Part shown: one piece after another, positions 58,961 through 60,011 of the stretch
Position numbering within the stretch: position 1 is the first letter of the stretch
Layout of the letters: the number at the start of each line of letters is the position of its first letter
Source of the DNA: Candidatus Freyarchaeum deiterrae
GTDB lineage: Archaea > Asgardarchaeota > Jordiarchaeia > Jordiarchaeales > Jordiarchaeaceae
NCBI GenBank assembly: GCA_037305845.1
Contig: CP147778.1
Location: 2,144,001 to 2,208,000, forward strand
DNA length: 64,000 nt
Direction: 5' to 3'
Program-made: the position numbers and the translations under genes
The notes under the pieces: generated by a model
The model's database searches: none
What the model was told of the DNA's origin: nothing
Seen by the model: only the letters and a program-made list of their open reading frames with translations

Positions 58961-60011
<1,051 letters not shown>

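What the first reader, a model, noticed from the sequence alone, without database searches (positions are those of the whole stretch)
59715..59742. Canonical BHB intron in the universally conserved t6A gene kae1
Seen: CAAGGUCC-GGGG-CU^A-AGAAG-aguuugauccc-UUUCU-CCCU-UA^A-GGACCUUG, with an 8-bp outer stem, 4-bp central helix, two 3-nt bulges and an inner stem. Excision of 28 nt restores SQGPGLGPCLR and a 340-aa protein abutting bud32. Known: Kae1 is near-universal and generally essential, and the gene sits in its normal operon with no other lesions, so a pseudogene is unlikely. Like cbf5, it is an RNA-modification enzyme whose mRNA would depend on the tRNA-splicing machinery.
Basis: partly seen in the sequence, partly recalled or inferred. 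Interest (0 to 1): 0.92.

Follow-up and report, generated by a model that had tools for sequence, protein, structure and literature searches.

The report
tRNA-type mini-intron splits Asgard kae1
The only copy of the normally essential tRNA-modification gene kae1 in this Asgard archaeon is interrupted by a 28-base insert shaped like the target of the archaeal tRNA-splicing enzyme, and comparison with relatives makes it very likely a true intron cut out of messenger RNA, which in the papers searched was reported inside an archaeal coding sequence only for cbf5.

Summary
Confirmed. Window 59715-59742 (-) is a 28-nt insert in the genome's only kae1, forming a strict bulge-helix-bulge (8-bp outer stem, 4-bp helix, two 3-nt bulges). 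The standard cut restores GPGL-GPCLR and a 340-aa Kae1. The host is an Asgard archaeon of the Jordarchaeia, very probably Freyarchaeum Freya-1. The insert recurs exactly in four independently assembled runs. All 17 genomes with an assembled kae1 in four Asgard families (two Jordarchaeia, Odinarchaeia, one unnamed) carry a 13-32-nt insert at the same base, in all three frame phases. The helices show compensatory changes, including at synonymous exon positions (16/16 paired against 33/85 in intronless genes). The closest Kae1 found (89%) lacks exactly these 28 nt and keeps the predicted junction, most likely a precise loss. An (αβ)2 EndA with a CSL-like loop, and RtcB, are encoded. cbf5, rtcB, ychF and a RuBisCO-like gene carry similar inserts, so the link to RNA-modification enzymes is not special. 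No spliced RNA was seen. No paper found reports it; this scan noted the same intron before in other Asgard genomes. Verdict: new member of the cbf5-type mRNA intron class, about 93% likely.

The parts
59743..60011 (-). kae1 exon 1 (codons 1-89 and two bases of Leu90; TTG start; holds GLEGTAH and GGIHPRE)
   Evidence: TIGR03722 positions 1-79; unspliced it reads as a 93-aa ORF ending at TGA 59732-59730
59749..59756 (-). 5' strand of the 8-bp exon-exon outer stem (CAAGGUCC)
   Evidence: pair probability 0.98-1.0
59745..59748 (-). exonic strand of the 4-bp central helix (GGGG)
59742..59744 (-). 5' bulge CU^A; predicted cut between 59743 and 59742
   Evidence: BHB cut rule; restores Leu codon CUA
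59715..59742 (-). 28-nt ORF-less BHB intron (inner hairpin, CCCU helix strand at 59720-59717, first two bases of the 3' bulge)
   Evidence: exactly this gap separates the gene from an intron-less sister allele
59714..59716 (-). 3' bulge UA^A; predicted cut between 59715 and 59714
59706..59713 (-). 3' strand of the outer stem (GGACCUUG, codons G-P-C)
   Evidence: third codon positions co-vary with exon 1
58961..59714 (-). kae1 exon 2 (last base of Leu90 to stop; holds [24 protein letters not shown])
   Evidence: TIGR03722 positions 80-323; no ATG/GTG/TTG in frame for its first 19 codons
58334..58960 (-). bud32, directly abutting the kae1 stop (context)
   Evidence: TIGR03724, 243 bits
60186..60365 (-). 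rps27ae, upstream gene of the same string (context)
   Evidence: NF001669

Best explanation
The insert is an ORF-less bulge-helix-bulge intron in the kae1 pre-mRNA. The transcript folds so that exon 1, the intron and exon 2 form an h-B-H-B-h' motif. The host's (αβ)2 tRNA splicing endonuclease cuts after the second base of each bulge, RtcB joins the exons, and the mRNA then encodes full-length 340-aa Kae1 for the KEOPS t6A complex. Unspliced RNA gives a dead 93-aa fragment. The intron is old (shared by Jordarchaeia, Odinarchaeia and a further Asgard family), is kept because it is removed efficiently, and is now and then lost precisely. Shown: sequence, fold, frame repair, conservation, covariation, empty allele, enzyme genes. 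Inferred: transcription through the site, cleavage, ligation, the full-length protein.
For: Sole kae1 in a closed genome; the third hit is a 774-aa HypF-like protein. kae1-bud32 is essential in Haloferax (PMC3426518). Inserts sit at the same base in 17 of 17 genomes of four families with an assembled kae1 and in metagenome contigs: 22 distinct junctions of 13-32 nt, phases 0, 1 and 2; all four in-frame ones hold a stop; central helix fully paired in 21 of 22. In alignment A1, 98.4% of cells pair, 25 cells change on both sides, 0/500 shuffles reach this, and slid controls give 29-62%. The third bases of the two Gly codons across the junction pair in 16/16 intron-bearing genes (six pair types) against 33/85 intron-less genes; the 8-bp stem is complete in 14/16 against 10/85. 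A sister allele (89% protein identity, nested among intron-bearing genes with starred support) lacks exactly the 28 nt and has the predicted junction CCG GGG CTA GGA CCT. EndA α keeps Tyr-His-Lys and the CSL lysine of Aeropyrum EndA; EndA β and RtcB are present. cbf5 of this genome has a 32-nt BHB insert at its catalytic Asp.
Against: No spliced read, cDNA or junction peptide was available. Relatives are not independent, so the covariation counts overstate significance. The outer stem is partly a by-product of the GPG..GP codons (6-7 of 8 pairs form in most intron-less genes). Folding energy is not unusual against shuffles. One relative has a G-A mismatch in the central helix.
Confidence: 0.93

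Rival explanations
1. The gene is not spliced. Kae1 is made as two chains (93 aa and about 231 aa) that assemble, and the hairpin is a translation-coupling or stability element.
For: Gene callers annotate two ORFs in all split relatives. Some relatives have a start codon near the exon 2 boundary.
Against: Here exon 2 has no ATG/GTG/TTG for 19 codons, yet these codons (GPCLR..A..AR.L) are conserved in all relatives. The called starts differ among relatives (212-253 aa). The break lies inside the conserved GPG.GP loop. It does not explain the exact 3-4-3 geometry or the precise empty allele.
Confidence: 0.02
2. Translational recoding (frameshift, readthrough or ribosome hopping over the hairpin) yields full-length Kae1 without RNA splicing.
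For: A stable hairpin directly follows the last exon 1 codon, as in bypassing signals (from memory: T4 gene 60).
Against: Insert lengths fall in all three phases and the in-frame ones hold stops, so no single frameshift works. The triplet before the exon 2 GGN codon (UAA, UGA, AAA, AGA) never matches the Leu take-off codon, so there is no matched landing site.
Confidence: 0.02
3. kae1 is a pseudogene broken by an insertion, or the insert is an assembly error.
For: The organism is uncultured and known from metagenome assembly only. Other Asgard drafts show plain frameshifts in kae1 (G339, one base).
Against: Exact insert in four separate run assemblies. Same site in 17 genomes with differing inserts. 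Both exons intact and 85-90% conserved within the genus. No second copy.
Confidence: 0.01
4. The BHB is cut by EndA but mostly not religated, so it works as a cleavage or decay switch, or as a regulatory gate that ties Kae1 output to splicing capacity.
For: Yeast TSEN cuts mRNAs for decay (PMC10485636). Every unspliced form found is non-productive. The site has been kept across three deep lineages. rtcB itself has such an insert.
Against: Pure decay cannot supply an essential single-copy protein. A precise loss in a close sister shows the intron is dispensable there. Similar inserts sit in unrelated genes, and the ychF one is absent from all five congeners, which fits neutral spread. A regulatory role on top of splicing is neither shown nor excluded.
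Confidence: 0.02

Closest known systems
cbf5 pre-mRNA BHB intron of Desulfurococcales and Sulfolobales (Watanabe 2002; Yoshinari 2006; Yokobori 2009, PMC2738675)
   Same: Short ORF-less insert in a conserved motif of a coding sequence; cut after the second base of each bulge; variable inner part; (αβ)2 EndA host; lineage-specific loss.
   Different: Other gene (kae1), other phylum (Asgard). The motif is a strict BHB, whereas cbf5 motifs are described as unconventional or relaxed. Splicing is shown for cbf5 by cDNA and is only inferred here. The host has several such genes, not one.
HVO_1309 5' UTR intron of Haloferax volcanii (Schwarz 2020, PMC7714728; review PMC10485636)
   Same: BHB-flanked 46-nt intron in an mRNA, cut by EndA.
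   Different: It lies in the untranslated leader, so no reading frame depends on it; α2 enzyme.
Non-canonical tRNA introns of Jordarchaeia/Freyarchaeia and Atabeyarchaeia (PMC11291895; bioRxiv 10.64898/2026.10.13.758758)
   Same: Same lineage, size range and motif; 92-95% of tRNAs interrupted in the complete genomes.
   Different: Those papers treat tRNA genes only; 'mRNA', 'kae1' and 'cbf5' do not occur in the 2026 preprint. Atabeyarchaeia-sized genomes (family f13) have an intact kae1 although their cbf5 is split.
Archaeal rRNA BHB introns with LAGLIDADG homing endonucleases (from general knowledge)
   Same: EndA-dependent BHB junction.
   Different: No ORF in the intron, no endonuclease gene beside kae1 in the loci read, and no LAGLIDADG_3 match in the genome.

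Membership tests
Archaeal BHB (EndA-spliced) pre-mRNA intron, cbf5 type | Two 3-nt bulges on opposite strands around a 4-bp helix, with flanking helices | tested here: met
Archaeal BHB (EndA-spliced) pre-mRNA intron, cbf5 type | Cut after the second base of each bulge restores the frame and the conserved protein motif | tested here: met
   340 aa; 16 of 16; identical to the natural intron-less allele
Archaeal BHB (EndA-spliced) pre-mRNA intron, cbf5 type | Position conserved, inner sequence and length free, junction pairing kept by compensatory change | tested here: met
Archaeal BHB (EndA-spliced) pre-mRNA intron, cbf5 type | Host encodes a splicing endonuclease (hetero-oligomeric in cbf5 hosts) and an RNA ligase | tested here: met
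   two EndA subunits, α with Tyr-His-Lys and CSL lysine; RtcB, itself interrupted by a 29-nt insert
Archaeal BHB (EndA-spliced) pre-mRNA intron, cbf5 type | Spliced mRNA exists in vivo and EndA cleaves the RNA in vitro | not testable with these tools
   no RNA reads or assay available; the intron-less contigs are most likely DNA
Self-splicing group I or group II intron | Ribozyme core of hundreds of bases | tested here: not met
   28 nt; no Rfam match in 56000-64000 beyond one chance hit
Homing (mobile) archaeal intron | Endonuclease gene in or beside the intron | tested here: not met
   only PF14528 was searched genome-wide
Archaeal Kae1 (TIGR03722) | Whole-length match with GxEGTA, HxxxH metal motif and linkage to bud32 | tested here: met

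The most novel reading that the evidence does not exclude
Jordarchaeia (and to a lesser degree Odinarchaeia and kin) run a routine protein-catalysed mRNA splicing system. tRNA-type micro-introns have spread into many coding genes. Some are ancient and fixed (kae1, cbf5), some are recent (ychF), and they are lost precisely, which suggests conversion by a spliced copy. Essential genes, including the ligase RtcB, would depend on EndA/RtcB. This would be a spliceosome-free, multi-gene exon-intron organisation in the archaeal phylum closest to eukaryotes, and it would mean that core genes of these genomes are widely mis-annotated as fragments.
Probability: 0.7. Interest if true: 0.88.

Novelty: new member of a known kind. 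Interest (0 to 1): 0.76.

Why it matters
In the literature searched, EndA-spliced mRNAs in archaea are cbf5 and the HVO_1309 leader (PMC10485636, PMC7714728). An intron in a universal, essential gene, held at one base across three deep Asgard lineages, shows that coding-sequence splicing is neither confined to cbf5 nor to Crenarchaeota. Databases list this gene as fragments in all these genomes, which affects marker-gene sets and gene-loss claims for Asgard archaea. The pair of sister alleles with and without the intron gives a clean case of intron loss. The claim can be tested at once, because metatranscriptomes of the wetland soil of Freya-1 exist (PMC11291895).

Tried and rejected
Excisions of 1-34 nt other than 28 nt: none restored the motif. 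Folding z-score: uninformative. Genome-wide census without homology: strict settings recovered kae1 and cbf5 on top but missed the inserts with short outer stems; relaxed settings gave 170-292 mostly spurious candidates, so no total count is claimed. A search for a spliced transcript in the protein collection found full-length close relatives only from two runs. These are probably DNA, because the contigs span opposite-strand genes and a run of the same accession series holds an unspliced cbf5 at the same 80% distance; the run metadata could not be read, and that the two loci belong to one organism is likely, not shown. Metagenome pattern scan: most of the 120 hits were chance; two Bathyarchaeia-like kae1 hits were intron-less. 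Thermoproteota: not found in 401 genomes with one junction pattern; the single hit was not kae1. Low-scoring kae1 matches in 17 other Asgard genomes did not break at this site; those read were contig ends or a one-base frameshift. One origin of the intron: not rejected (p-AU 0.34) and not shown. Promoter and terminator scan (bacterial consensus) and Rfam gave nothing. ARAGORN found only 10 tRNAs, all with introns, so it cannot census this genome. Ten paper searches found no report of a kae1 intron; subscription journals are mostly not covered.

Full report
Observation. It folds into an 8-bp outer stem, a 3-nt bulge CUA, a 4-bp helix GGGG/CCCU, a 3-nt bulge UAA and an inner hairpin. The outer stem has pair probabilities near 1 and the helix about 0.8, whatever flank is included. 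Cutting after the second base of each bulge removes 59742-59715 and gives a single 340-codon frame with [16 protein letters not shown] that stops directly before bud32. The two halves match the archaeal Kae1 model at 1-79 and 80-323. Without splicing the gene gives a 93-aa fragment. The folding energy is ordinary, but only 13 sites in 7.15 Mb have equally good BHB geometry, and this one falls exactly on the break of the gene.

Host. The genome is one 3,576,204-base contig. The nearest named Kae1 is from Ca. Jordarchaeum madagascariense (87%). The size fits the complete Freyarchaeum genome Freya-1 (3.58 Mbp; PMC11291895); this identification is inferred from size and kinship. That paper reports introns in 92-95% of the tRNA genes. 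There is no second kae1, and kae1-bud32 is essential in Haloferax (PMC3426518).

Not an error. The insert with its context is identical in four separately assembled sequencing runs.

Relatives. In GTDB genomes an insert sits at the same base, inside the Leu codon of GPGL, in all 17 genomes with an assembled kae1 from four families: the host family (5), a second Jordarchaeales family (5), Odinarchaeia (4, including O. yellowstonii) and an unnamed family (3). In the 400-genome Asgard survey the other families score as whole genes, and the 17 low scorers checked do not break here. A junction pattern found none in 401 Thermoproteota genomes. With metagenome contigs there are 22 distinct junctions of 13-32 nt in all three phases; the four in-frame inserts all hold a stop; the central helix is fully paired in 21. 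On 16 aligned junctions 98.4% of cells pair, 25 cells change on both sides, and no shuffle or slid control comes near. The exonic helix strand changes from GGGG to GGGU, CGGU or CGGC and the intron strand follows. The third bases of the Gly codons on either side of the junction pair in 16 of 16 intron-bearing genes, with all four Watson-Crick types, against 33 of 85 intron-less genes; 20 of 22 in the larger set. Kin are not independent, so these are patterns, not probabilities. They point to selection on RNA structure, not on protein.

Empty allele. Every Kae1 at 85% identity or more is listed as a fragment, except two cluster members from runs SRR28530378 and SRR28530379. Their gene differs from the window by a single long gap of exactly 28 nt at this site and keeps CAGGGTCC GGGG CTA GGACCTTG, the predicted splice product. 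In the Kae1 tree it is the sister of the window's gene, inside three nested starred clades of intron-bearing genes. A run of the same series holds a cbf5 with its intron in place, at the same distance from this genome, so the source is probably DNA and the case a precise loss. If it were RNA it would be direct proof of splicing. Intron-bearing genes form two groups in the tree; one origin is not rejected (p-AU 0.34) and not shown.

Machinery. Two EndA subunits are encoded. The α subunit is closest to Aeropyrum pernix EndA and keeps the Tyr-His-Lys triad, the terminal Trp and the lysine of the Crenarchaea-specific loop that gives broad specificity (PMC3241643). The β subunit lacks the His. RtcB is present. 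No LAGLIDADG_3 gene was found in the genome and no endonuclease-sized gene beside kae1.

Wider context. The same genome has BHB-type inserts in cbf5 (32 nt, at the catalytic Asp), rtcB (29 nt, restores LPDAHQG), ychF (31 nt, restores GKPNSGKTT; absent in five congeners) and a RuBisCO-like gene (30 and 59 nt). The rtcB, ychF and RuBisCO-like leads came from earlier notes of this scan and were checked here. A special link to RNA-modification enzymes is therefore not needed; the simplest reading is spread of micro-introns in a host with a permissive EndA.

Mechanism. Most likely EndA cuts both bulges, RtcB ligates, and full-length Kae1 is made (0.93). Split chains, ribosomal recoding, pseudogene or error, and cleavage without ligation each fail on specific tests listed under the rivals. 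Cleavage, ligation and translation are inferred.

Comparison and verdict. It works like, and meets every testable defining feature of, the cbf5 pre-mRNA intron class (PMC2738675). The only other EndA-spliced archaeal mRNA named in reviews is the HVO_1309 leader. Ten literature searches found no kae1 intron, and the 2026 preprint on Asgard introns covers tRNAs only. This scan noted the same kae1 intron before in Odinarchaeia and Jordarchaeia genomes, and introns at another kae1 site in DPANN and Baldrarchaeia; those notes were not used as support. New member of a known kind; interest 0.76.

Noticed in passing
window 47690-47720 (-): 31-nt BHB-like insert (one helix mismatch) in the Walker A of the ychF/YGR210-like GTPase; removal restores GKPNSGKTT. 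All five congeners and other Asgard genomes checked are intact, so it is a recent gain.
   Followed up: yes
window 30657-30686 and 30580-30638 (-): Two BHB inserts (30 nt with an in-frame TAA; 59 nt) 18 nt apart in a RuBisCO-like gene; removal joins the two RuBisCO_large fragments. No relatives compared.
   Followed up: partly
G000 C1:1483415-1483446 (-), locus L117: cbf5 has a strict 32-nt BHB insert at the catalytic Asp (HSGTL-D-PKV). cbf5 is also split near model position 70 in a Jordarchaeales genome and two complete f13 genomes, and whole in Odinarchaeum and family f20.
   Followed up: partly
G000 C1:1452796-1452824 (-), locus L116: rtcB, the presumed splicing ligase, has a 29-nt relaxed BHB insert whose removal restores LPDAHQG; the ligase would be needed for its own mRNA.
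   Followed up: partly
L263:5001-5969 and L264:464-1390: Intron-less sister allele of kae1 (runs SRR28530378/9) that keeps the intron-adapted exon codons; probable precise intron loss.
   Followed up: yes
G000 whole genome: ARAGORN finds only 10 tRNA genes in 3.58 Mb, all with introns, and none in the window; most tRNAs are probably hidden by multiple introns.
   Followed up: no
G000 C1:2580004-2580031 (+) and C1:819119-819143 (-): Further short strict-BHB candidates (28 and 25 nt) that join two coding-like frames in the genome scan; not tested by homology.
   Followed up: no
L012, L019, L121 (family f20), upstream of kae1; L016, L018, L020, L021 (Odinarchaeia): The gene order upstream of kae1 differs: a 272-278-aa ORF in f20 and divergent small-GTPase genes in Odinarchaeia replace rps27ae, while bud32-rdgB-rps15 downstream is mostly kept.
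   Followed up: no
L279 (G339:C10:75900-76500) and L122/L125 (G018): Plain frameshifts in kae1 of two other Asgard drafts (one base near the SxGPG motif; near model position 210), probably assembly errors, not introns.
   Followed up: partly
window 60385-60500 (-): The rps24e tail carries a repeated lysine/glutamate unit (KKAEPKEKPE twice).
   Followed up: no
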